16,612 nt of DNA, taken from a virus. Taxonomy: Duplodnaviria > Heunggongvirae > Uroviricota > Caudoviricetes. The notes beneath the pieces were generated by a model that saw only the letters and a list, made by a program, of their open reading frames with translations, made no database searches and was not told the DNA's origin. Every line of letters starts with the position of its first letter. The stretch's first letter is position 1. The DNA lies in IMG/VR virus record IMGVR_UViG_2778261179_000013, positions 1 to 16,612 of that record, one strand, 5' to 3'. Positions 1,156 through 16,612 of this stretch are shown here, piece by piece. Both the position numbers and the translations under genes were made by a program.

Positions 1156-2379
1156 ATGGCTGGCGAACTTAACAAACTGAGCGACAGGAAGTTAAAGGGA
1201 TTACATGGTATCCCGGCCAGTAAGATTGAGTTCTATGCTGATGGTGCCGGGCTGAGCGCCAAGGTAACTAAAGTTGGTGGTATTAGCTGGGTGTTTACTT
1301 ACCGACTCGACGGGCAGAAGCTGCATCGTCTTACTCTGGGACGATACCCGGATATGAGCCTCAAAGAGGCCCGTTCTTCGCGTGATAAATGCCGCCAATG
1401 GCTGGCCTCAGGTAAAGATCCAAAGCACCAGTTGGCGCTGACCACTCAGGAAACGCTTAAACCGGTCACTGTTAAGGAAGCTATCGAATACTGGATACGC
1501 GAATATGCAGAAGAGAACCGCGCGAATGTTGAAAGGCACAAAGCGGAGCTGCGTAAACACATTTATCCTTATATTGGGAAAATGGCGCTCGCTGACTGCG
1601 AAACCCGTTATTGGCTTGACTGCTTTGACAGGATGAAAAAGAAAACGCCAGTTGCTGCGGGTTATGTGTTCCAGATGTGCAAGCAAGCCCTGAAATTCTG
1701 CCGGGTTCGTCGCTATGCTGTGAGTACCGCGCTGGAAGATTTAACAATTCCAGATGTCGGTAAAAAACAGGCAAAAAAAGACCGGGTATTAAACGATAAA
1801 GAGGCTGGCGATTTATGGGCTGCCATTACCTCTGGAACTTGCTTCATGCCTTACTACACCAGGCTACTGACAATCTTAATGGTGTTTGGGTGCCGAACGC
1901 AGGAGGCCAGACTGTCAGAATGGAGTGAATGGGATATGGATGCCTGGGTCTGGACAGTTCCCAAAGAGCACAGCAAGGGCGGCGAGAAGATTGTAAGACC
2001 TGTGCCGGATGCCATGCGCAAATTCATTGAAATACTGCATGATGAAACGAAATTATCCGGCCTTTTGCTTGGGTCGGTTAAAGGCAGTGAAGCGGTAAGT
2101 CAGTGGGGCCGCGGTGTTTATAAAAAGCTGGGGCATTCTGAACCATGGACACTGCACGATCTAAGACGAACTTTAGCAACGCATATGAATAATATGGGTA
2201 TAGCACCACACGTTGTCGAACAGTTGTTGGGGCACTCAATGCCGGGAGTTATGGCGATTTATAACCGTAGTCTGTACTTGCCTGAGAAACTGGATGCGTT
2301 GAATAAATGGTATGACCGTCTCGATATTTTGGCGGGTAATCACTCGAATATTGTTATTTTAAAGGCTGGTGAGAAATGA
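1156..2379 (+). CDS. int: Tyrosine recombinase, P4-type phage integrase
   Basis: 407 aa. N-terminal arm-binding-type region (GLSAKVTKVGGISWVFTYRLDGQKLHRLTLGRYP), catalytic region with HDLRRTLATHM (HxxR) and the LGHSMPGVMAIYNRSLY tyrosine motif. Confidence 0.95.
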   Translation: MAGELNKLSDRKLKGLHGIPASKIEFYADGAGLSAKVTKVGGISWVFTYRLDGQKLHRLTLGRYPDMSLKEARSSRDKCRQWLASGKDPKHQLALTTQETLKPVTVKEAIEYWIREYAEENRANVERHKAELRKHIYPYIGKMALADCETRYWLDCFDRMKKKTPVAAGYVFQMCKQALKFCRVRRYAVSTALEDLTIPDVGKKQAKKDRVLNDKEAGDLWAAITSGTCFMPYYTRLLTILMVFGCRTQEARLSEWSEWDMDAWVWTVPKEHSKGGEKIVRPVPDAMRKFIEILHDETKLSGLLLGSVKGSEAVSQWGRGVYKKLGHSEPWTLHDLRRTLATHMNNMGIAPHVVEQLLGHSMPGVMAIYNRSLYLPEKLDALNKWYDRLDILAGNHSNIVILKAGEK

Positions 2380-2678
2380 AAAAGATAAATAAAATGACCG
2401 AATTACCGAAATGGTTTTCATTGGACAATTACAATTCTATCAATGGGCTGAGTGATCTTGATTTAATTAATCAGTTAGCTATGAGAATGGAAGTTGCTAA
2501 TGATGATTTTGAATGGCTTGATACCTATCCCGGAGCAAGAAATGAGTTCGCTTCATTTATGGAAGAAAGATTTAGTAACCCAATTCGGCCACTGAGCGGA
2601 AAATTATTTGCAGAAAAAATAAAAAGAAAAAATATTCTGAATGGCAAATGGATTCCGTCGGAGGTGTTGAGCCTTTAA
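2376..2678 (+). CDS. Hypothetical protein (AT-rich cargo ORF)
   Basis: 100-aa ORF whose ATG overlaps the int stop (ATGA at 2376-2379). Markedly AT-rich compared with the flanking genes. No motif recognised. Confidence 0.4.
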   Translation: MKKINKMTELPKWFSLDNYNSINGLSDLDLINQLAMRMEVANDDFEWLDTYPGARNEFASFMEERFSNPIRPLSGKLFAEKIKRKNILNGKWIPSEVLSL

Positions 2679-3163
2679 GATTAATTGATGTGATGCAGTT
2701 GTCTAAGAAAGCCGCTCATTATATTGATGAAAATAAAATTAATCGCTCATTGCGTGGACAAAAAAGGTCTGTAAGTAAGACCATAAGCGATAATGATCAA
2801 ATGCATATTACTTTAGATTTGTCTTGGCCTGATGAAATTTTATTAAGCGATTTGGCTGCATTGTTGCCAATATGGCGAATGGATCTTGAAAGGAAAAGTG
2901 AAAATAGTTGTAAGTTAAGTAATAGCTGGAGTGTAATCAAAAAGAAAATATTCGATTGCAAGATATTGCCAATGTTAGACCTTATGGAGTGGGCTAAAAT
3001 TAACAATGCAACAATCACTAACAGAGTTTTATCTTTAGCCCTGTTTCCTAATGCAGAGTATGACGCCATTGGTATCGCTCAAACGATCAAACCGTTCATT
3101 AGAAATTTTTCCGCAGATTTTTCTATAGAAATATTAAAGCGCAAAGCTATGGATTCATTTTAA
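2648..3163 (+). CDS. Hypothetical protein (AT-rich cargo ORF); start uncertain (alternative ATG at 2693)
   Basis: 171-aa ORF in a different frame, overlapping the previous ORF by 31 nt just after an A-rich run (2606-2632). Either a separate gene or the distal half of a frameshifted gene. No motif recognised. Confidence 0.45.
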   Translation: MDSVGGVEPLRLIDVMQLSKKAAHYIDENKINRSLRGQKRSVSKTISDNDQMHITLDLSWPDEILLSDLAALLPIWRMDLERKSENSCKLSNSWSVIKKKIFDCKILPMLDLMEWAKINNATITNRVLSLALFPNAEYDAIGIAQTIKPFIRNFSADFSIEILKRKAMDSF

Positions 3164-5637: not shown

Positions 5638-5852
5638 GACAGGTTCCTTTTGAAGTCCTGATGCACGCTGAAAATGCCCTTTCTGAAAGCGAAGGAGCCT
5701 ATGAGGTTCTCAGCATGTGGCTAGACAGTATTCCTGAAGGCGAGGAGTTCCACGGTGAAGCGTGCAAGGTAAGCGCAATCATGTCGCTGCTGCATAAATC
5801 TATCGGCGAGCTGGTGAAAGCGCGGGAGGCTTACAGTGAAAAACGCGCCTAA
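5634..5852 (+). CDS. Hypothetical small acidic protein
   Basis: 72-aa ORF with GGAGA upstream; overlaps the start of the replication gene. Confidence 0.5.
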   Translation: MRQVPFEVLMHAENALSESEGAYEVLSMWLDSIPEGEEFHGEACKVSAIMSLLHKSIGELVKAREAYSEKRA

Positions 5853-7605
5853 CGTGAAAACCCTCCCACGCGACAAAATGGAGGAGGCCATCATCTTTGC
5901 CGGAACAGGAGCATGGAAAGCAGCTCAGGATTACCAGAAAGGTAAAGATGAGCATGGCGATGAGGTGCCGCCGGTTGTTCTGGATCATACCCAGCTGGCG
6001 GAATTACCCCACCTGCGCATTGTTGATAAAGGACGCCGATTTGCCCGTGTCTGTCAGGCCGGACTTATCGAACAAAACCAAATCAGTATGATTGCCAATA
6101 AGTTGTGTGAGGCTGGCGTTACCAATGCTGAGTTTATCAACGAAAAAGGTGAGAAAGAGGACTGGACGCCATTAATGAAGCGTCTGGAAGACGAGCCCCT
6201 AATGGTGACTACGAGGGGTAGCGCTACGCCAGCGCTTAACCAGATGGGAGCCAGCCAGCGCGGGGAAGTTCTGCTTGCTCATTACGATGGCAATCTGGCG
6301 ATCCATGCTGATTCCGACACGGTTCATCATTACAACGGCGTGGTGTGGGTTCCGCTTTCGGATAAAGAGCTGCAGCGAGAAATGGCGCAAATTTTTATTG
6401 ATGCCGAAGTCGCCTATTCGCAGAACGCGATTAAATCCGCTGTCGATACAATGAAGCTGGGTCTGCCAGTGATGGGTAACACAGCCCGAAATCTTATTGG
6501 TTTCAGCAACGGGGTTTTTGATACCCGGTTAGGGCAATTTCGACCACATGATAAAAAGGACTGGCTTATCGTTGCGAGCGAATTGCCATTCAGCGAACCA
6601 GCAGAAGGAGAGACTCTGGCAACCCATGCGCCGAACTTCTGGAAATGGCTCCGCCGCTCTGTGGCGGATAATGACAGAAAATCAGACCGCGTACTGTCTG
6701 CTCTGTTCATGGTGCTGGCGAACCGGTACGACTGGCAGCTGTTTCTTGAGGTAACGGGGCCGGGCGGAAGTGGTAAAAGTGTTATGGCTGAGATCTGCAC
6801 GATGCTGGCCGGCAAAGCCAATACGGTATCGGCAAGCATGGCGGCGCTGGAGAACCCAAGGGAAAGGGCGCTGGTGGTTGGCTATTCGCTGATTATCATG
6901 CCGGATATGACCCGGTACGCTGGCGACGGCGCAGGGATTAAAGCTATCACTGGCGGGGATAAGGTAGCTATCGACCCTAAACACAAAGCGCCGTATTCAA
7001 CGCGTATTCCGGCAGTGGTGCTGGCCGTCAATAACAATGCCATGTCATTCAGCGACCGAAGCGGTGGTATTTCGCGTCGTCGGGTTATTTTTAACTTCTC
7101 AGAGGTGGTACCGGAAAACGAACGTGATCCTATGCTTGCCGAGAAGATTGAAGGTGAGCTGGCCGTTATCATTCGCCACCTGCTTACTCGCTTTTCCAGA
7201 CAGGACGAGGCCAAACAGCTTTTGCATGAGCAGCAGAAATCAGAAGAGGCGCTGGCCATCAAACGTGAAGGGGATTCACTGGTGGACTTTTGCGGCTACC
7301 TGATGGCTTCGGTCGTATGTGATGGCATGTTTATCGGGAACGCCGAGATCGTACCGTTCAGCCCGCGCCGTTATCTGTATCACGCTTATCTGGCTTATAT
7401 GCGGGCTAACGGCCTGAGCAAGCCGGTGTCGCTGATGAGGTTCGGCACGGATATGCCAGGCGCAATGGCTGAATATGGCAAGGAGTACCAGAAGCGCAAA
7501 ACAAAACATGGCATAAGATCAAACGTCACACTTCACGACGATTCAGAAGACTGGATGCCTATGTGGAATGATACTTCTCACAATACCGGAGAAAATCAAA
7601 AGTAA
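5836..7605 (+). CDS. Replication initiator / SF3 helicase of the P4 alpha (D5-like) family (PICI pri-rep-like)
   Basis: 589 aa. Walker A VTGPGGSGKS, a Walker B-like LIIMPDMT region, and a D5_N-like segment (IGFSNGVFDTRLGQFRPHDKKDW). GTG start at 5836 is preceded by GGGAGG with a 7-nt spacer. No EGYATA-type primase motif seen in the N-terminal ~300 aa. Confidence 0.85.
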   Translation: MKNAPNVKTLPRDKMEEAIIFAGTGAWKAAQDYQKGKDEHGDEVPPVVLDHTQLAELPHLRIVDKGRRFARVCQAGLIEQNQISMIANKLCEAGVTNAEFINEKGEKEDWTPLMKRLEDEPLMVTTRGSATPALNQMGASQRGEVLLAHYDGNLAIHADSDTVHHYNGVVWVPLSDKELQREMAQIFIDAEVAYSQNAIKSAVDTMKLGLPVMGNTARNLIGFSNGVFDTRLGQFRPHDKKDWLIVASELPFSEPAEGETLATHAPNFWKWLRRSVADNDRKSDRVLSALFMVLANRYDWQLFLEVTGPGGSGKSVMAEICTMLAGKANTVSASMAALENPRERALVVGYSLIIMPDMTRYAGDGAGIKAITGGDKVAIDPKHKAPYSTRIPAVVLAVNNNAMSFSDRSGGISRRRVIFNFSEVVPENERDPMLAEKIEGELAVIIRHLLTRFSRQDEAKQLLHEQQKSEEALAIKREGDSLVDFCGYLMASVVCDGMFIGNAEIVPFSPRRYLYHAYLAYMRANGLSKPVSLMRFGTDMPGAMAEYGKEYQKRKTKHGIRSNVTLHDDSEDWMPMWNDTSHNTGENQK

Positions 7606-7860
7606 TGGGAAAAGTGTTCACCACTATTCACTGTGGATAAAATCGTTTATATAACAGATATTTAAGGGGTGAACACTTTTTATTGAAGTGTTCACCAAGT
7701 ATTCACCTGTTCACCTTTAAAGGGCTTTTCTTTTAAAAGGTGAAGGGTTAGGGTGAACACTAGTGAATACTTAAAATTATAGTCTTCACCCTGTAACCAT
7801 ATGAATTTGAATGGAAAAAATGCAAAGGTGAACAGGTGAACACTTAAACGCATATTTTTT
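7606..7860. repeat. Iteron array and AT-rich tract; putative origin of replication (P4 ori/crr-like)
   Basis: At least 10 copies of GGTGAACA(CTT) or its reverse complement (AAG)TGTTCACC, e.g. 7612-7622, 7668-7678, 7686-7696, 7709-7716, 7751-7760, 7826-7833, 7834-7844, plus variants (tattcacc, gtgaatac, cttcacc), followed by T-rich runs at 7852-7866. Placement immediately 3' of the replication gene is typical for these satellites. Confidence 0.75.
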
Positions 7861-7878
7861 ATTTTTACGAGGCTGCAT

Positions 7879-8223
7879 ATGGAAATTTTAGGCAACCATA
7901 ACGACAAGTTTCACGGCATCAAATTTCTGCATAGTGCAATTGAAGAAATGAATGAGAAAGCTGAAGTAACTCTGACCGACTATCTGGCTCTTAGGGCTTT
8001 TGTTCTGGCTGAGCGAAGAGAAACTCAGGACTACATTGATGCAATGGATGAAACGTATGCTGATTTGCCCGATGATCTGCGTTCTTACATTGAGCTTCTT
8101 AATGACGTTGCCGCACAGCTATCAAATCCATCACGCTCAAATGGGAATTTAAAATCAATTATTTACGATGCGAGAATATCAAGCGGAAACGCCATGTCTC
8201 ACTGGTTCAGTGTTGATAGATAG
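7879..8223 (+). CDS. Hypothetical protein (AT-rich cargo, gene 1 of a two-gene cassette)
   Basis: 114-aa ORF with ACGAGG 6 nt upstream of the ATG. Acidic and predicted helical; no motif recognised. Compositionally distinct from the flanking replication and head genes. Confidence 0.55.
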   Translation: MEILGNHNDKFHGIKFLHSAIEEMNEKAEVTLTDYLALRAFVLAERRETQDYIDAMDETYADLPDDLRSYIELLNDVAAQLSNPSRSNGNLKSIIYDARISSGNAMSHWFSVDR

Positions 8224-8246
8224 TAAAATCTAAGAAGGGATAACTA

Positions 8247-9092
8247 ATGCGTACTAATGATGATTTACAGATAATCCGAAAGCATCTGGATGGTGAATTT
8301 GAACAGCGCCTGTTAGACGCTGCGATCAATAACCTTTTGGATGAAAATAATCAGCTTCGGTTCAGCAATTATGCCTATGCACTTAGAGAGCTATTCTTAC
8401 ACGTTCTAAAACGCATGGCACCTGATGAAAATGTTCAACTATGCGAGTGGTTTCCTGGTTTGAATGAAAGAGAGCAGGTTGCAAGAAAAGACTCTTACAA
8501 ATATATCATTCATGGTGGGTTAAGTGATGAATATGTCAGGGATGTACTTGATGTAAATATTGCCGGAGTAATTCCGGGATTGCGTGATGCGTTCTACTCA
8601 TTAAATAAATTTACTCACATAAGCGAAAAGATTTTTCCAATTAATGATGACGATGGCCTAAAAATGGTGGGAGAGGTTGAAGGTTGCATCGGAGCTCTTT
8701 TCACCAAGCTTGATGAGTGTCATAAGGAGATAATTAATAAGCTTTATGAAGCTGTGAGTGAGGCCGCGATACATAGTTCGATAACTGAAACTGTAACATC
8801 AATTGATATTTTATCGACACACAGCTCGGTTGATGAAGTGTATGTTGATGATGTGAAAATAGTAGAAATAAATGACTCTGAAGTAATTTTCTCTGTTAGT
8901 GGCTCTGTAGGTGTCGGGTTGCAATGGGGATCTAATTCCGATTTGCGAAATGACATAGGTGCTGTAGGTAGAGAAACATTCCCATTTACCTGCGAGGTGA
9001 GAAGTCCAGTGTATGCCCCTGAACGTTTAGAGTGTGATGAAGGGGCATTCCATGCAGATACTTCAAGTTGGTGGGAAGGATATTACGACTAA
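8247..9092 (+). CDS. Hypothetical protein (AT-rich cargo, gene 2 of a two-gene cassette)
   Basis: 281-aa ORF with AAGAAGGGA upstream of the ATG. Helical N-terminal region containing an R-x4-H motif (RELFLH) and a beta-rich C-terminal region. Followed by an intrinsic terminator. Confidence 0.6.
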   Translation: MRTNDDLQIIRKHLDGEFEQRLLDAAINNLLDENNQLRFSNYAYALRELFLHVLKRMAPDENVQLCEWFPGLNEREQVARKDSYKYIIHGGLSDEYVRDVLDVNIAGVIPGLRDAFYSLNKFTHISEKIFPINDDDGLKMVGEVEGCIGALFTKLDECHKEIINKLYEAVSEAAIHSSITETVTSIDILSTHSSVDEVYVDDVKIVEINDSEVIFSVSGSVGVGLQWGSNSDLRNDIGAVGRETFPFTCEVRSPVYAPERLECDEGAFHADTSSWWEGYYD

Positions 9093-9128
9093 CAAGTGTA
9101 AATTATTCGTCCTCGCGTTTATTAGTGC

Positions 9129-9160
9129 TTAGCCCGATAAAATTCGGGCTTTTATTTATT
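9129..9160 (+). terminator. Rho-independent terminator after the cargo cassette
   Basis: Stem agcccg (9131-9136) / cgggct (9145-9150) with an 8-nt loop, followed by tttatttatt (9151-9160). Confidence 0.6.
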
Positions 9161-9324
9161 ATTTTCATGTATATGTTGAGAAGTGGCACTCAGACGTGAG
9201 CCGCCACTGGCCGTTAAATCAAGCTGTAGCGAGTACAGCCTGTGGGATGCAGAAAAAGATTTAACGGCCTCCCCTCCAAGCGCTGGTTTCACGTCTCTAC
9301 GTTAATTGATACGGAAACCACTCC

Positions 9325-10491
9325 ATGAAGAAACTACTCGAATTACGCCAGCAGAAAGCCACACTCAAAACCCAGATGCGTTCCATGCTGGACAAAGCCG
9401 ACACCGAAAAGCGCAGCCTGAACGAAGAAGAGGGCAAAAAGTTCGATGAACTCCGCGCCCAGGCTGATGCGCTTGAAGTTGAAATTACCCGCCTCGAAGC
9501 CGTCGCCGACGATCAGCGCAATCTGCCTGGTACTTCCGTTGAAGGTGAGCTAGTAAGCAACGACGAGCTGCGTCACTACATTATGACCGGTGATACCCGT
9601 TCTCTCTCCACGCTGGTGCAGGCTGACGGCGGTTATACCGTTATTCCTGAACTGGACAAAGAGATCATGCGTCAGTTGCAGGATGATAGCGTGATGCGCT
9701 CCATCGCAACGGTAAAGACCACCAAAACCAACGAATACCAGAAACTGGTATCTGTGGGCGGCACTACCGTTAAGCGCGGTACCGAAGGCGAAGCGCGTAC
9801 CGAAACCAGCACGCCGAAGATGGAGCGTGTTGATATCAAACTCAACCCGATCTACGCCTATCCGAAAACCACTCAGGAAATTCTCGACTTCTCTGAGGTG
9901 GATATTCTGGGCTGGCTGTCTTCTGAAATTGCCGACACCTTCACCGCTACCGAAGAGAGCGACTTTGTGAACGGCGACGGTGATAAAAAATCCAAAGGGT
10001 TCCTGTCTTACCCTCGCGCGGCCACAGCCGATAAAACCCGCCCGTTCGGTACGCTGGAGAAGATGGAAGCTGCTGACGTTTCCTCTGATGGCCTGATCGA
10101 CCTGCTGTATAAGCTGAAAGCCAAATACCGCAAAAACGCCGTATGGGTGATGAACTCCAATACCGCGGCCAAACTGCAAAAGCTGAAAAACGGCAACGGG
10201 GATTACATCTGGCGAGATCGTCTGGTTGCCGGTTCTCCCGATACGCTGCTGGGCCGTCCGGTTCAATATCTCGAAACCATGCCAGATGCGGAAGCAGGTG
10301 AAGCGTTCCTTGCTGTGGGCGACTTCAAACGCGGCTATTTCATCGTGGATCACACCACTGGTGTGCGTACCCGTCCTGACAACATCACCGAACCGGGTTT
10401 CTACAAGGTACATACCGATAAATACCTGGGCGGCGGCGTGGTGGACTCCAACGCCATCAAGGTGCTTGAGCTTTCCGGCTCCGGTTCCTGA
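9325..10491 (+). CDS. Major capsid protein, HK97 family (with N-terminal delta/scaffold-like coiled coil)
   Basis: 388 aa. N-terminal coiled-coil region (LELRQQKATLKTQMRSMLDKADTEKRSLNEEEGKKFDELRAQADALEVEITRLEA) and HK97-MCP-like core blocks (GGYTVIPE ... AVWVMNSNTAAKLQKLKNGNGDYIW ... LLGRPV ... GDFKRGYFIVDH). Confidence 0.9.
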   Translation: MKKLLELRQQKATLKTQMRSMLDKADTEKRSLNEEEGKKFDELRAQADALEVEITRLEAVADDQRNLPGTSVEGELVSNDELRHYIMTGDTRSLSTLVQADGGYTVIPELDKEIMRQLQDDSVMRSIATVKTTKTNEYQKLVSVGGTTVKRGTEGEARTETSTPKMERVDIKLNPIYAYPKTTQEILDFSEVDILGWLSSEIADTFTATEESDFVNGDGDKKSKGFLSYPRAATADKTRPFGTLEKMEAADVSSDGLIDLLYKLKAKYRKNAVWVMNSNTAAKLQKLKNGNGDYIWRDRLVAGSPDTLLGRPVQYLETMPDAEAGEAFLAVGDFKRGYFIVDHTTGVRTRPDNITEPGFYKVHTDKYLGGGVVDSNAIKVLELSGSGS

Positions 10492-13680: not shown

Positions 13681-14037
13681 ATGGCAAGACCACCCAAACC
13701 GCCAGCTTACCTTGATGAGTTAGCTGCGCAGCAGTGGAAAGCGAAGGCGAAGCAACTGGCGGAGCGCGGGGATTTGACTCCCGCCGACTGGAACAACCTT
13801 GAGCTTTTTTGCGTCAACTATTCGATGTACCGCAAAGCCGTGGAAGACCTTGCCAGCCGTGGGTTCAGCATTGTTAACAGCCAGGGCGGTGAGAGCCGAA
13901 ATCCGGCGCTGAGCGCAAAGGCCGATGCTGAAAAAATCATGATTAAAATGTCGTCGCTGCTGGGCTTTGATCCGGTAAGCCGCCGCCGGAACCCGGTGGA
14001 AACGGAGGAGGAAGACGAGCTTGACCGTCTGGAATGA
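13681..14037 (+). CDS. terS: Terminase small subunit (P27-family-like)
   Basis: 118 aa from the ATG at 13681: MARPPKPPAYLDELAAQQWKAKAKQLAERGDLTPADWNNLELFCVNYSMYRKA ... The track ORF from 13513 adds an implausible Gly-rich N-terminal extension, so the internal ATG is preferred. Confidence 0.8.
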   Translation: MARPPKPPAYLDELAAQQWKAKAKQLAERGDLTPADWNNLELFCVNYSMYRKAVEDLASRGFSIVNSQGGESRNPALSAKADAEKIMIKMSSLLGFDPVSRRRNPVETEEEDELDRLE

Positions 14038-15682
14038 GTACGCAAACGCGATAAAAACGGGCGAAATTCCGGCCTGTAAGCGCGTAAAACAGGCCGTGGA
14101 AAGGTACTTTTCAGACCTGAATGACCCCCGTTATGTGTTCGATACGGCGACCGTAGAGCGGTTTATTGCGTTCTCGCGGCTCTGTCCTCACGTCAAAGGC
14201 CCGTTGCGCGGGCAGTCTATCGAGCTGGAGCCGTGGCAGCAGTTCGCCTTTGCTAACCTGCTGGGCTTTAAAGTCAGGGAGTCAGGCCGCCGGAAGTATA
14301 GCAGCGCCTTTATTGAGGTGCCGCGCAAGAATGCCAAATCCACCGTGGCCGCCATGCTGGCTAACTGGTTTCTGGTGATGGAGAAGGGCCAGCAGGATAT
14401 CTACACGGCGGCGGTAAGCCGGGATCAGGCCCGAATCGTGTTCGACGATGCCCGCCAGATGTGCCTGCTGTCAAAACCGCTGAAAAAGCGCGTCAGTATT
14501 CAGGCACACAAGGTCATTTTCCCGAAGAGCAACAGCCTGTTAAAGCCGCTGGCGGCAAAAGCGGCCACCATTGAAGGGACTAACCCCAGCCTGGCGATTG
14601 TCGATGAGTACCACCTTCACCCGGATAACGGCGTTTATTCCGCGCTTGAGCTGGGTATGGGCGCCCGTCCTGAGGCAATTTTGTTCGCCATCACTACCGC
14701 CGGGAGTAACGTAGTCTCGGCCTGTAAGCAGCATTATGACTACTGCTGCCAGATTCTGGCAGGGGAAGAGAGCAACGATTCTCTGTTTGTCCTGATATAC
14801 GAGCTGGACGACGAAATTGAGGTTGAGCAGCCGGAAATGTGGATTAAGGCCAACCCTAACCTGCATGTGTCTGTTGACGCAGCGAAGCTGGAATCCACCA
14901 TCCAGAAAGCGCGGGGGATACCGTCGCAATGGGTGGAAATGCTCACCAAACGTTTCAATATCTGGTGTCAGGGCTCCACGCCGTGGATGGGGGCTGGCGC
15001 GTGGGATGCCTGTGCACTCGACTATAACGAAGAAGAGCTGGTCGGAATGGAGTGTTATGCCGGGTTTGACCTGTCCTCAACCAGCGATATCACCAGCGTG
15101 AGTTACGCTTTCCCGTTTGACAGGGAGATCCGGCTTCTGACCCGCCACTATCTACCGGAAGCGCAACTGCTTAACGTCGCCAACAAAAACCGCGCCATCT
15201 ATCGCCAGTGGGTAAAAACGGGCTGGATACGCACCACACCCGGCGACTGTATCGACTATGACCGCATTCGTGACGATATCCTGCGCGATGCTGAAACCTT
15301 CAATATTCGGCTGGTGGGCTTTGATACGTGGAACGCTACGCATCTGCGCACCCAGCTACAGGGTGCGGGCCTTGATGTTGAGCCATTCCCGCAAACCTAT
15401 CTCAGGTTCAGTCCGGTAGCGAAATCCTTTGAAGTGTTTGTTAACCGCAGGGTAGTGCGCCATCGCGGTGATCCGGTTCTGGCCTGGGCGATTGGTAACG
15501 TGGTGATGGAGTCCGACGCCAATGCCAACATCAAGCCCAACAAAAAGAAATCCTCCAACAAGATAGATCCGGCTGTGTCTGCGTTAATGGCGTTTGGCAC
15601 CTTCCAGGCTGAGCACGAGGATTTTGCATTTGATATGAGTGACAGTCACAAACAACGGCTAGCTGATTTCAATGGGCTTTGA
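14021..15682 (+). CDS. terL: Terminase large subunit
   Basis: 553 aa. Walker A-like EVPRKNAKST, Walker B-like LAIVDEYH and a C-terminal nuclease-type region. Apparent TTG start at 14021 overlapping the terS end, so the start codon is uncertain. Confidence 0.9.
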   Translation: MTVWNEYANAIKTGEIPACKRVKQAVERYFSDLNDPRYVFDTATVERFIAFSRLCPHVKGPLRGQSIELEPWQQFAFANLLGFKVRESGRRKYSSAFIEVPRKNAKSTVAAMLANWFLVMEKGQQDIYTAAVSRDQARIVFDDARQMCLLSKPLKKRVSIQAHKVIFPKSNSLLKPLAAKAATIEGTNPSLAIVDEYHLHPDNGVYSALELGMGARPEAILFAITTAGSNVVSACKQHYDYCCQILAGEESNDSLFVLIYELDDEIEVEQPEMWIKANPNLHVSVDAAKLESTIQKARGIPSQWVEMLTKRFNIWCQGSTPWMGAGAWDACALDYNEEELVGMECYAGFDLSSTSDITSVSYAFPFDREIRLLTRHYLPEAQLLNVANKNRAIYRQWVKTGWIRTTPGDCIDYDRIRDDILRDAETFNIRLVGFDTWNATHLRTQLQGAGLDVEPFPQTYLRFSPVAKSFEVFVNRRVVRHRGDPVLAWAIGNVVMESDANANIKPNKKKSSNKIDPAVSALMAFGTFQAEHEDFAFDMSDSHKQRLADFNGL

Positions 15683-15718: not shown

Positions 15719-16612
15719 TTAATATTCGACTTGCTGAGCCGGAACGGAGTTTAAAATCCAGCATTCTTGATGGACAAAATTTATATTCAGAGCAGATAAA
15801 TATTGTTGCTCATATGCTCTGTATATTAATAGTTTTGTTTGATTCTGATCATCCAATTCATAATCCGTTTTTGCAGTGCTCCATTGGGAGTGAAGCATTA
15901 CTGATTGAACAAAGGAGTTCATCTTTATACTCATGTTCATTACATTTGAAGATGTTCCGGCATATTTGTATGAGTCGATTACCGTGTTTTTTCCATCGCC
16001 ATCAACATCGAAAGGATTGGATATCCACTTGAATGTATTTAACAAAAAAAGATTGGCGACCCAAGTGTAATCGTTGCCGTTTATATTTTCTGTGGTAGAA
16101 GAGCTAATGCTTTCATGGAGATTGGTTGCCCCCATGAAAATCGCCTCAGGATCTATCTTTCCGTCAGACCTTCGCTGCCTTCCGGCTGCTAAGTAATTGA
16201 AAATGCCAGCATAACACTGCCCCATATATACTATCGCTCTATCTAAATCTGGCGTTGTTTTTATGCGATTAAGTAACCTATAGGGCGGTATTGGTGGGAG
16301 GGCGTCCAATCCATGCATACTTCCATGACCCGTTATAAATATAACTATATTATCATGGGTATTATCGTCGCAATCCGAAAAAAATTCGCTGCTTCTTTTT
16401 ACATTATATTGATGGTTAGTGCCAACTGAGATTAATTTTTGTATATTTCCTCTGTTGTTTCCATCTATATAAATAAAAATATCAGCAGGATTAATTCCAC
16501 GATTTTCTAAGCAGTAAATCCCAAAGGCCAGATCAGAAACATGCCGATCTTCCGGCTCACTGCTGGAAGCCAAAAAAAGAACCCATTTTGTTTTGTCTGC
16601 TAATAGCCCCAT
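15719..16612 (-). CDS. Caspase-like (clan CD, C13/C14-type) peptidase-domain protein; N-terminus at the window edge, possibly partial
   Basis: 297 aa on the minus strand with stop at 15719-15721 and ATG exactly at 16610-16612. Clan CD layout: hydrophobic strand ending in His-Gly (NIVIFITGHG) followed about 38 residues later by a strand ending in the catalytic-type Cys (AIVYMGQCYAG). AT-rich and convergent with terL. Confidence 0.6.
   Translation of the reverse strand: MGLLADKTKWVLFLASSSEPEDRHVSDLAFGIYCLENRGINPADIFIYIDGNNRGNIQKLISVGTNHQYNVKRSSEFFSDCDDNTHDNIVIFITGHGSMHGLDALPPIPPYRLLNRIKTTPDLDRAIVYMGQCYAGIFNYLAAGRQRRSDGKIDPEAIFMGATNLHESISSSTTENINGNDYTWVANLFLLNTFKWISNPFDVDGDGKNTVIDSYKYAGTSSNVMNMSIKMNSFVQSVMLHSQWSTAKTDYELDDQNQTKLLIYRAYEQQYLSALNINFVHQECWILNSVPAQQVEY

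What the first reader, a model, noticed from the sequence alone, without database searches (positions are those of the whole stretch)
7861..9160. AT-rich two-gene cassette between the replication origin and the head operon: candidate accessory or defence module
Two ORFs (114 aa and 281 aa) with good ribosome-binding sites and their own terminator sit between the iteron origin and the capsid gene. They are clearly more AT-rich than both flanks, which suggests separate acquisition. Neither matches any family I recognise. The larger protein has a helical N-terminal region with an R-x4-H motif (RELFLH), compatible with but not diagnostic of a HEPN-type RNase, and a beta-rich C-terminal region. Satellite islands are known to carry anti-phage or helper-interference cargo in such slots.
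Basis: partly seen in the sequence, partly recalled or inferred. Interest (0 to 1): 0.75.

Follow-up and report, generated by a model that had tools for sequence, protein, structure and literature searches.

The report
Argonaute-less "pAgo-associated nuclease" satellite cargo
A phage satellite of E. coli carries, in a slot already known to hold anti-phage genes, a stand-alone copy of an untested protein family that databases call an "Argonaute-associated nuclease". Its recurrent defence-island and satellite-cargo contexts make it a good candidate single-gene phage-defence factor, not a new kind of system.

Summary
Two real genes, ORF-A (7879-8223, 114 aa) and ORF-B (8247-9092, 281 aa), form an AT-rich insert (GC 0.40-0.41, flanks 0.52-0.54). 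It lies between the iteron origin and the capsid gene of a capsid-forming PICI-type satellite at the E. coli yhdJ/fis site.

No Argonaute is present here. In about 70 genomes the family has no conserved partner, and only two loci adjoin a short pAgo system. Neighbours are typically defence genes (Lamassu, MADS, Septu, PARIS, Hachiman, AbiE).

In Enterobacterales, ORF-B homologues recur in the primase-adjacent slot of at least six satellites. Sister islands carry other cargo there, including the PADLOC candidate PDC-M18. That slot is a published PICI immune hot spot.

ORF-A is a small four-helix protein from a tiny satellite-restricted family. It occurs without ORF-B, and ORF-B occurs without it, so an obligate pair is unlikely.

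The chemistry is unproven. HEPN similarity is weak, and the C-terminal domain is cystatin/NTF2-like, not PD-(D/E)XK.

Best reading: stand-alone candidate defence cargo, a new variant of a known kind.

The parts
7612..7845 (.). Iteron replication origin of the satellite, immediately downstream of the D5-type primase gene (5836-7605). It is context for the slot, not part of the cargo.
   Evidence: About ten GGTGAACA(CT) repeats in both orientations. The primase carries Pfam D5_N, DUF5906 and Pox_D5. The region is 92% identical in sister island L008 up to 7868.
7869..9096 (+). The AT-rich insert, defined by homology breakpoints with sister cf-PICIs. It contains ORF-A and ORF-B.
   Evidence: blastn against L008 and L009 shows backbone homology ending at 7868 and resuming at 9097. 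GC is 0.40-0.41 against 0.52-0.54 in the flanks. It is the most diverged segment (83-85% identity) between two variants of the island whose backbone is 92-100% identical.
7879..8223 (+). ORF-A: 114 aa, acidic (pI 4.7), predicted four-helix bundle. It belongs to a small family restricted to enterobacterial satellites. Function is unknown and it is separable from ORF-B.
8247..9092 (+). ORF-B: 281 aa, acidic (pI 4.5), cytoplasmic two-domain protein. It is a stand-alone member of the pP_pnuc ('predicted pPIWI-associating nuclease') / PADLOC Aga_Nuclease family and the candidate defence gene.
   Evidence: Pfam PF18165 at 7e-31 and PF18166 at 1.4e-36. PADLOC PDLC02413 at 7e-84 over the full length. 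phrog_29508 at 3e-59. More than 220 homologues, all with the same two-domain architecture. AF2 gives pLDDT 91.8 and pTM 0.85. dN/dS is 0.08-0.14.
8280..8654 (+). ORF-B N-terminal all-helical domain (residues 12-136, pP_pnuc_1). It holds invariant N41, R47, E48, T123 and H124. The RELFLH motif lies at 8385-8402.
8712..9074 (+). ORF-B C-terminal domain (residues 156-276, pP_pnuc_2). A long helix packs on three long antiparallel strands. Invariant residues are D187, H192, Q226, G228, S229 and D232 of the LQWGSNSD motif (W227, N230 and S231 are kept in over 90%); the DTSSW motif (271-275) is nearly invariant.
9131..9150 (+). Intrinsic terminator-like hairpin after the slot. It is a backbone feature and not cargo.
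   Evidence: Terminator scan. Sister islands L008 and L009 have a hairpin at the same position with a different stem sequence.

Best explanation
The window is a capsid-forming PICI-type phage satellite. The stretch 7869-9096 is horizontally acquired cargo in the accessory slot next to the primase gene and origin.

The functional core is ORF-B. It is a stand-alone member of the pP_pnuc / 'Aga_Nuclease' family and works here without an Argonaute.

Most likely it is a single-gene anti-phage factor. I infer that it is made from the resident satellite and stays inactive until a phage infects. It would then attack nucleic acid through conserved polar residues (R47/E48, H124, D187, H192, QWGSNSD). 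This would stop phage production, probably by abortive infection, and protect the satellite's host population against phages the satellite cannot exploit.

ORF-A is a small satellite-lineage helical protein co-transcribed with ORF-B. It is not required for ORF-B function. At most it modulates ORF-B or serves the satellite itself.

Shown: gene reality, family membership, absence of Argonaute, slot variability, defence-island neighbourhoods, and separability of the two genes.

Inferred: the defence function, the nuclease chemistry, the trigger, and the abortive outcome.
For: - Satellite identity: integrase, AlpA-like HTH, D5 primase, iterons, HK97 capsid, S78 protease, portal, HNH, TerS and TerL.
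- Family membership of ORF-B: Pfam PF18165 + PF18166 and PADLOC Aga_Nuclease at 7e-84 over the full length.
- Cargo status: low GC. Breakpoints fall at 7868 and 9097. Sister islands at the same yhdJ/fis site carry instead an 86-aa gene plus PDC-M18 A+B (L008), or only an 87-aa gene (L009).
- Rarity: the cassette is present in 4 of 5426 complete E. coli genomes.
- Recurrent satellite cargo: ORF-B homologues at 52-87% identity sit in the replication-module-adjacent slot (primase or helicase gene; none called in L097) of other satellites. These are in Pantoea (L003), Raoultella (L086), Buttiauxella (L087), Pectobacterium (L096) and Rahnella (L097).
- The pri-adjacent region of PICIs is a published immune hot spot (PMC11364771).
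- Defence-island context across phyla: there is no conserved neighbour. Neighbours include SMC/AAA_15/AAA_21, SIR2_2 and Shedu. PADLOC finds mad3, LmuB, AbiLi, AriA, PtuA, HEC-01A, BovA and mREase_IV. On plasmids the neighbours are Hachiman, AbiE and restriction endonucleases.
- ORF-B does not need ORF-A: about 100 loci have ORF-B homologues with no ORF-A-like sequence, even by HMM on six-frame translations. In Pectobacterium a decayed, frameshifted ORF-A-like remnant precedes an intact ORF-B homologue.
Against: - No experiment on any member of this family was found in the searchable literature.
- The C-terminal domain looks cystatin/NTF2-like, which is not a known nuclease fold.
- In Rhizobiales the gene is translationally coupled to Lit-family or caspase-family peptidases. 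That fits a sensor or regulator role as well as an effector role.
- Guilt by association with defence islands and cargo slots does not prove defence.
- ORF-A and ORF-B do travel together in two enterobacterial lineages, so cooperation is not excluded.
Confidence: 0.55

Rival explanations
1. ORF-A and ORF-B form an obligate two-component system. This could be toxin-antitoxin-like or sensor-effector. ORF-A would neutralise or trigger the ORF-B effector, and phage infection would break or make that interaction.
For: The genes are 23 nt apart on the same strand. The pair is conserved together at 85-90% identity in a variant island (L088-L091) and in a Pantoea element (L003). An ORF-A-like remnant lies directly upstream of the Pectobacterium ORF-B homologue, although other cargo separates it from the origin there. 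Other family members also have lineage-specific, tightly coupled partners such as Lit, caspase-like and a flavobacterial convergent gene.
Against: The ORF-A family has only 7 representatives, whereas the ORF-B family is large and spans many phyla. About 100 ORF-B loci lack any ORF-A-like sequence. ORF-A homologues occur in cf-PICIs without ORF-B, next to unrelated reverse-strand genes. In Pectobacterium ORF-A is decayed while ORF-B is intact, which an essential antitoxin would not allow. The Pantoea pair lies inside a contiguous 84%-identical block reaching into a capsid-gene remnant, so its co-occurrence reflects common descent and is not independent evidence.
Confidence: 0.2
2. ORF-B is specifically a HEPN-type RNase. 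The R47-x4-H52 motif would be its catalytic site, and it would cleave RNA on activation.
Confidence: 0.2
3. ORF-B is not an enzyme. It would be a sensor, adaptor or protease regulator whose cystatin-like C-terminal domain binds a phage or host protein. In other lineages it would control an adjacent effector (Lit or caspase-like peptidase, short pAgo). In the satellite it would act alone by binding and blocking a phage protein.
For: The C-terminal domain matches cystatin, latexin, fetuin-B and multicystatin folds, which are protease inhibitors, and NTF2/VirB8-like folds. In Rhizobiales plasmids there is a 4-nt overlap with downstream Lit-family or caspase-family peptidase genes. The two pAgo-linked loci already encode their own SIR2 or REase effector. 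Assembly-blocking single proteins (Tai) are known cargo of this very slot (PMC11364771).
Against: Fold similarity is weak and this small alpha+beta fold is very common. Invariant polar His/Asp/Arg/Glu residues look more like a catalytic or metal site than a binding surface. Most family members have no partner at all.
Confidence: 0.15
4. The two genes serve the satellite life cycle and not host defence. They could act in capsid-size control, scaffolding, helper interference or replication.
For: Their position lies between the origin and the head operon. ORF-A-like genes follow the origin in several cf-PICIs.
Against: Sister islands with 88-97% identical backbones lack both genes. ORF-B relatives occur in Cyanobacteria, Bacteroidota, Thermotogae and Alphaproteobacteria, on chromosomes and plasmids with no satellite. 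There is no similarity to morphogenesis families.
Confidence: 0.07

Closest known systems
Pfam pP_pnuc_1 / pP_pnuc_2 (PF18165 / PF18166), 'predicted pPIWI-associating nuclease'; PADLOC model Aga_Nuclease (PDLC02413)
   Same: ORF-B is a full-length, high-scoring member with the same two-domain architecture as all 120 listed homologues. The family does sometimes sit beside short pAgo systems. Examples are Bradyrhizobium L053 (SIR2-APAZ + pAgo + homologue) and Flavobacterium L059 (REase-APAZ + pAgo + homologue).
   Different: No Argonaute or APAZ gene is in the window. Only 2 of about 70 related genomic loci have one. Here the gene is satellite cargo. The family's nuclease activity has never been shown, as far as the searchable literature goes.
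bAgaN, the nuclease of long-B pAgo BPAN systems (Song et al. 2023, PMC10620215)
   Same: Both are called 'pAgo-associated nuclease'. Both have two domains joined by a linker, and both are proposed abortive-infection effectors.
Immune cargo in the pri-adjacent accessory region of PICIs, e.g. Tai systems (He et al. 2024, PMC11364771)
   Same: The genomic position is the same, directly downstream of the satellite primase/origin. The logic is the same: variable, AT-rich anti-phage cargo that benefits the satellite. Sister island L008 carries PADLOC candidate PDC-M18 in this slot.
   Different: Tai genes were chosen because PADLOC and DefenseFinder did not recognise them, and they block tail assembly. 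ORF-B matches a PADLOC model and has a different predicted activity. This island is capsid-forming, whereas Tai was described in classical PICIs, prophages and P4-like elements.
Single-gene HEPN defence proteins and toxins (RnlA/LsoA, AbiA C-terminal domain, ApeA-type)
   Different: There is no sequence or profile similarity. The motif histidine is not invariant and the motif sits in an atypical position. ORF-B has an additional conserved cystatin/NTF2-like domain.

Membership tests
pP_pnuc / Aga_Nuclease protein family (Pfam PF18165 + PF18166; PADLOC PDLC02413) | Significant full-length match to both Pfam domain models, above the gathering thresholds, and to the PADLOC model | tested here: met
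   PF18165 scores 107 bits (cut-off 26.3). PF18166 scores 125.8 bits (cut-off 25). PDLC02413 scores 279 bits, E 7e-84, covering model positions 3-267 of 267.
pP_pnuc / Aga_Nuclease protein family | Family-wide invariant residues are retained (R47, E48, T123-H124, D187, H192, LQWGSNSD, DTSSW) | tested here: met
   Every column that is invariant or kept in over 90% of the 54-sequence alignment is retained in ORF-B.
Prokaryotic Argonaute defence system (pAgo plus associated effector) | An Argonaute/PIWI gene, with APAZ partner for short pAgos, in the same operon | tested here: not met
   None of the window ORFs scanned matches PIWI or pAgo, and RefSeq annotates none in the island. Only 2 of about 70 related loci have a pAgo within two genes.
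Prokaryotic Argonaute defence system (pAgo plus associated effector) | Nuclease activity of the associated protein, activated by guide-dependent target recognition | not testable with these tools
   This needs biochemistry. No published assay of this family was found.
BPAN bAgaN (PD-(D/E)XK, RecB-like) | Restriction-endonuclease-like C-terminal fold with a D-EVK catalytic motif | tested here: not met
HEPN superfamily | Conserved R-x4-6-H motif | tested here: inconclusive
   R47 is kept in 54 of 54 sequences and H52 in 46 of 54 (N, L or I otherwise).
HEPN superfamily | Significant sequence, profile or structural similarity to established HEPN domains | tested here: not met
Capsid-forming PICI (cf-PICI) satellite (context of the finding) | Integrase, AlpA-type regulator and primase/origin, plus its own HK97 capsid, protease, portal, head-tail connectors, HNH, TerS and TerL, but no tail or lysis genes, within about 15 kb between host genes | tested here: met
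   Pfam and RefSeq annotation of the window and L001 show the island bounded by yhdJ and fis with no tail genes.
PICI pri-adjacent immune hot spot | Variable gene content at the same backbone position among related islands, including recognised defence genes | tested here: met
   L008 carries PDC-M18 A+B. L009 carries a single 87-aa gene. L092 and L095 carry an ORF-A-like gene plus a reverse gene. Breakpoints fall at 7868 and 9097. The hot spot is described in PMC11364771.
Type II toxin-antitoxin pair (ORF-A/ORF-B) | Obligate co-occurrence of the two genes | tested here: not met
   Each gene is found without the other. A decayed ORF-A lies next to an intact ORF-B in L096.

The most novel reading that the evidence does not exclude
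Stand-alone pP_pnuc proteins would be a widespread, so far unnamed single-gene anti-phage system that works without Argonaute. It would use a previously uncharacterised two-domain architecture: a helical domain plus a cystatin/NTF2-like domain, with an invariant Arg/Glu/His/Asp constellation. Phage satellites of several unrelated backbones would repeatedly capture it as cargo. In a stronger version, the protein is a modular sensor or regulator that can be coupled to interchangeable effectors (Lit peptidase, caspase-like peptidase, short pAgo) or act alone.
Probability: 0.35. Interest if true: 0.65.

Novelty: new variant of a known kind. Interest (0 to 1): 0.45.

Why it matters
Three reasons it would matter if confirmed.

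- It would give a function to a large family that spans many phyla. That family is currently known only from a computational label tied to Argonaute, although most members, including this one, have no Argonaute nearby.
- It would add another cargo type to the primase-adjacent immune hot spot of phage satellites. It would also show that capsid-forming PICIs use that hot spot.
- The gene is small and solo, and it lies in E. coli, so it is directly testable. A phage panel plus point mutants of the invariant residues would decide both whether it defends and how.

It does not overturn any current view. Defence cargo in satellite hot spots is expected.

Tried and rejected
- Sequence search of ORF-B, and of a 54-sequence profile, against all PDB chains found nothing meaningful.
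- hhalign of the family profile against a DUF4145 protein and an Abi_C protein (HEPN clan) gave probability 0.1.
- I considered identity with bAgaN of BPAN systems and rejected it, because bAgaN is RecB-like PD-(D/E)XK.
- I considered the pPIWI-RE / DinG / REase triad (PMC3702460). That REase is a different protein with a zinc ribbon plus REase fold, and no DinG or PIWI-RE gene is in the window.
- tblastn of ORF-B against 50,697 phage genomes gave no match. ORF-A gave two weak matches, one of them a cf-PICI-like segment inside a Klebsiella 'phage' record.
- Rfam on 7500-9400 returned only sub-threshold hairpin matches in the origin.
- Literature searches for pP_pnuc, PF18165/6, 'pPIWI-associating', Aga_Nuclease and the RefSeq accessions found nothing relevant. 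The Fillol-Salom 2022 PICI-immunity paper is not in the searchable library.
- I rejected the toxin-antitoxin reading as the main explanation because the two genes are separable.
- The 86/87-aa proteins that follow the origin in sister islands are not homologous to ORF-A.
Full report
**What is in the sequence**

The window is a complete capsid-forming PICI-type satellite. Pfam and RefSeq annotation give a tyrosine integrase (1156-2379), a DUF6387 gene, an AlpA-like HTH, an AntA-domain protein and an Icd-like gene. A D5-type primase follows (5836-7605). The head and packaging genes come after it: HK97 capsid (9325-10491), S78 prohead protease, portal, head closure and connector proteins, HNH, TerS and TerL (14021-15682). 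No tail or lysis genes are present.

In E. coli ABW_S38 the island lies between yhdJ and fis. Downstream of the primase gene lie about ten GGTGAACA(CT) iterons in both orientations, at 7612-7845.

ORF-A (7879-8223, 114 aa) and ORF-B (8247-9092, 281 aa) follow on the + strand. Each has a Shine-Dalgarno-like sequence, and a hairpin-plus-T-run lies at 9131-9150. GC is 0.41 and 0.40 for the two ORFs, 0.34 for the origin, 0.52 for the primase gene and 0.54 for the capsid gene. Both ORFs are under purifying selection, with dN/dS of 0.08-0.14 against two diverged copies.

**Boundaries and variability of the slot**

Two sister islands sit at the same att site: L008 (strain CU37RT-2) and L009 (strain QL57EC). 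Their backbone homology to the window stops at 7868 and resumes at 9097.

| Island | Content of the slot |
|---|---|
| Window | ORF-A, ORF-B |
| L008 | 86-aa gene, then two reverse-strand genes matching PADLOC candidate PDC-M18 B and A (E 8e-23 and 2e-71) |
| L009 | one 87-aa gene |
| L092/L093 and L095 (further cf-PICIs) | ORF-A homologue (35-47% identity), then an unrelated reverse-strand gene of 159-170 aa |

The terminator hairpin and the roughly 165 nt before the capsid gene are backbone. They are conserved in islands with different cargo, and the hairpin stems differ in sequence. The exact cassette occurs in only 4 of 5426 complete E. coli genomes.

**What ORF-B is**

- Pfam pP_pnuc_1 (residues 12-136, 7e-31) and pP_pnuc_2 (156-276, 1.4e-36), both described as "predicted pPIWI-associating nuclease".
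- PADLOC Aga_Nuclease over its whole length (7e-84).
- phrog_29508 (3e-59).

More than 220 homologues were found, all with the same two-domain architecture.

The AlphaFold model is confident (pLDDT 91.8, pTM 0.85). It shows a seven-helix N-terminal domain, a 47-residue connecting helix, and three long antiparallel strands.

Invariant residues in 54 homologues are N41, R47, E48, T123, H124, D187, H192, Q226, G228, S229 and D232. The DTSSW motif at 271-275 is nearly invariant.

The HEPN idea is thus neither established nor excluded. The "nuclease" label remains a prediction.

ORF-B is not the bAgaN nuclease of BPAN systems. bAgaN is a RecB-like PD-(D/E)XK enzyme with a D-EVK motif (PMC10620215).

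**Is it Argonaute-associated?**

The window has no PIWI or APAZ gene. I fetched 74 species-level genomic loci encoding relatives and called their neighbours.

No neighbour family is conserved. The largest recurrent partner is a convergent gene of 127-166 aa in five Flavobacteriia/Sphingobacteriia genomes.

Pfam and PADLOC scans covered the 145 neighbours within two genes. They show SMC/AAA_15/AAA_21 ATPases, SIR2_2, Shedu, integrases, mad3 (6), LmuB (5), AbiLi, AriA, PtuA, HEC-01A, BovA and a type IV REase.

Short pAgo systems are adjacent in just two loci:
- Bradyrhizobium L053: SIR2-APAZ + pAgo + homologue.
- Flavobacterium L059: REase-APAZ + pAgo + homologue, with a 5-nt gap.

Both of those pAgo systems already carry their own effector.

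On plasmids (59 records) the gene sits in defence islands with Hachiman, AbiE and restriction enzymes. In Rhizobiales it overlaps by 4 nt a downstream Lit-family or caspase-family peptidase gene. In E. coli and Klebsiella plasmids it is solo. Eighteen IMG/VR viral contigs carry relatives, five of them this island.

The family is therefore a typical defence-island resident that is usually solo and sometimes coupled to variable partners.

**Recurrent capture by satellites**

I examined seven enterobacterial contexts. Six place the ORF-B homologue in the accessory region next to the replication module of a satellite:

| Locus | Host | Context |
|---|---|---|
| Window | E. coli | cf-PICI, after D5-type primase and origin |
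| L003 | Pantoea brenneri | after a shorter D5-type primase, beside a 1232-aa reverse-transcriptase gene |
| L086 | Raoultella | after the primase and an M78-like pair |
| L087 | Buttiauxella | alone between an AAA_25 helicase and a ClpP-capsid fusion |
| L096 | Pectobacterium | after an 86-aa gene and two reverse genes |
| L097 | Rahnella | after a DUF4145 gene |

The seventh context, Pantoea agglomerans, is chromosomal.

**ORF-A and its relation to ORF-B**

An HMM of the ORF-A family was searched against six-frame translations of all 115 loci held at that point. It hit 16 loci:
- Eleven copies of this island, its variants and the Pantoea block.
- Four cf-PICI-type loci that lack ORF-B.
- A decayed, N-terminally truncated and frameshifted copy directly upstream of the intact Pectobacterium ORF-B homologue.

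The Pantoea pair lies in one contiguous 84%-identical block that includes the first 45 nt of a capsid gene. It therefore descends from a cf-PICI and is not independent evidence for linkage.

The two genes are separable, and an essential-antitoxin role for ORF-A is unlikely. A modulatory role is not excluded, because adjacency recurs in two lineages.

**Most likely mechanism**

Shown:
- ORF-B is a stand-alone member of the pP_pnuc / Aga_Nuclease family.
- It is acquired as cargo in a known satellite immune hot spot.
- Its relatives live in defence islands across phyla.

Inferred:
- It is a single-gene anti-phage factor expressed from the resident satellite.
- It is activated on infection.
- It acts through its invariant Arg/Glu/His/Asp residues, most plausibly on nucleic acid, with an abortive outcome.

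I put 0.55 on the defence-cargo reading as a whole and much less on the specific chemistry. The rivals are an obligate ORF-A/ORF-B two-component system (0.2), a bona fide HEPN RNase (0.2, a sub-hypothesis about chemistry), a non-enzymatic sensor or protease regulator suggested by the cystatin-like domain and the peptidase partners (0.15), and a satellite life-cycle function (0.07).

**Novelty and verdict**

The family, the hot spot and the principle are all known. New here are the Argonaute-free, solo use of this family as recurrent satellite cargo, and the observation that the "pPIWI-associating" label describes only a small minority of contexts. No paper in the searchable library mentions the family by name.

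I rate it a new variant of a known kind, with moderate interest (0.45). It is a clean, easily testable candidate and not a surprise.

Noticed in passing
window 9160-9324: The noncoding stretch just upstream of the capsid gene is the best-conserved noncoding DNA among related cf-PICIs. It is conserved even in L092, whose backbone is only 69% identical. It contains a perfect 12-bp inverted repeat, GGCCGTTAAATC (9208-9219) / GATTTAACGGCC (9256-9267), and folds far better than shuffles (-55.5 kcal/mol, z = -4.3). It may be a late-operon leader, regulatory RNA or protein-binding site.
   Followed up: partly
window 2376-3163 (indel at 2626): The DUF6387 gene after the integrase is split into 100-aa and 171-aa ORFs. 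The cause is a 1-bp deletion relative to NZ_CP067265, where it is one 262-aa gene. This is either a pseudogene in this copy or a sequencing error. The region is also very AT-rich (GC 0.33), suggesting a second, 5' cargo slot.
   Followed up: partly
window 15719-16612 (- strand) and beyond the window end: A third AT-rich accessory region (GC 0.37-0.40) lies after TerL. It has a 297-aa reverse-strand gene and, in L001/L088, a further 100-aa gene, with no Pfam or PADLOC match. Sister islands carry different genes there (DUF3892 in L008, a 63-aa gene in L009). It is probably the 3' cargo hot spot of the island.
   Followed up: partly
L008 9581-11138 (E. coli CU37RT-2, same slot): The sister island carries PADLOC candidate system PDC-M18 in the pri-adjacent slot. 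It consists of a 344-aa A protein and a 173-aa membrane B protein.
   Followed up: yes
L096 5451-5716 (Pectobacterium satellite): A decayed ORF-A-like gene, lacking its N-terminus and frameshifted, sits directly upstream of an intact ORF-B homologue.
   Followed up: yes
L116 5828-6517, L121 5828-6691, L118 5789-7354 (Rhizobiales plasmids): ORF-B family genes overlap by 4 nt a downstream gene: a Lit-family peptidase in L116, a caspase-family protein in L118, and a small hypothetical gene that precedes a Lit-family peptidase in L121. All lie inside Hachiman/AbiE/REase defence islands. They are possible two-gene systems with swappable protease effectors.
   Followed up: partly
window 7922-8521 versus L088 9044-9643: Between two variants of the island whose packaging module is 99-100% identical, the cassette is the most diverged segment (83-85%). 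This suggests allelic replacement or faster turnover of the cargo, although dN/dS stays low.
   Followed up: partly
L095 (GenBank PQ569648, 'Klebsiella phage P12620-1', 94-106 kb): The end of this 106-kb phage record looks like a cf-PICI segment: primase, unannotated ORF-A-like gene, reverse 170-aa gene, capsid, protease and portal. It may be a co-assembled satellite or a chimera.
   Followed up: no
L003 733-4431 (Pantoea brenneri): A 1232-aa reverse-transcriptase (RVT_1) gene lies in the same satellite-like element, a few kb upstream of the ORF-A/ORF-B pair. It is possibly a DRT-type defence gene.
   Followed up: no
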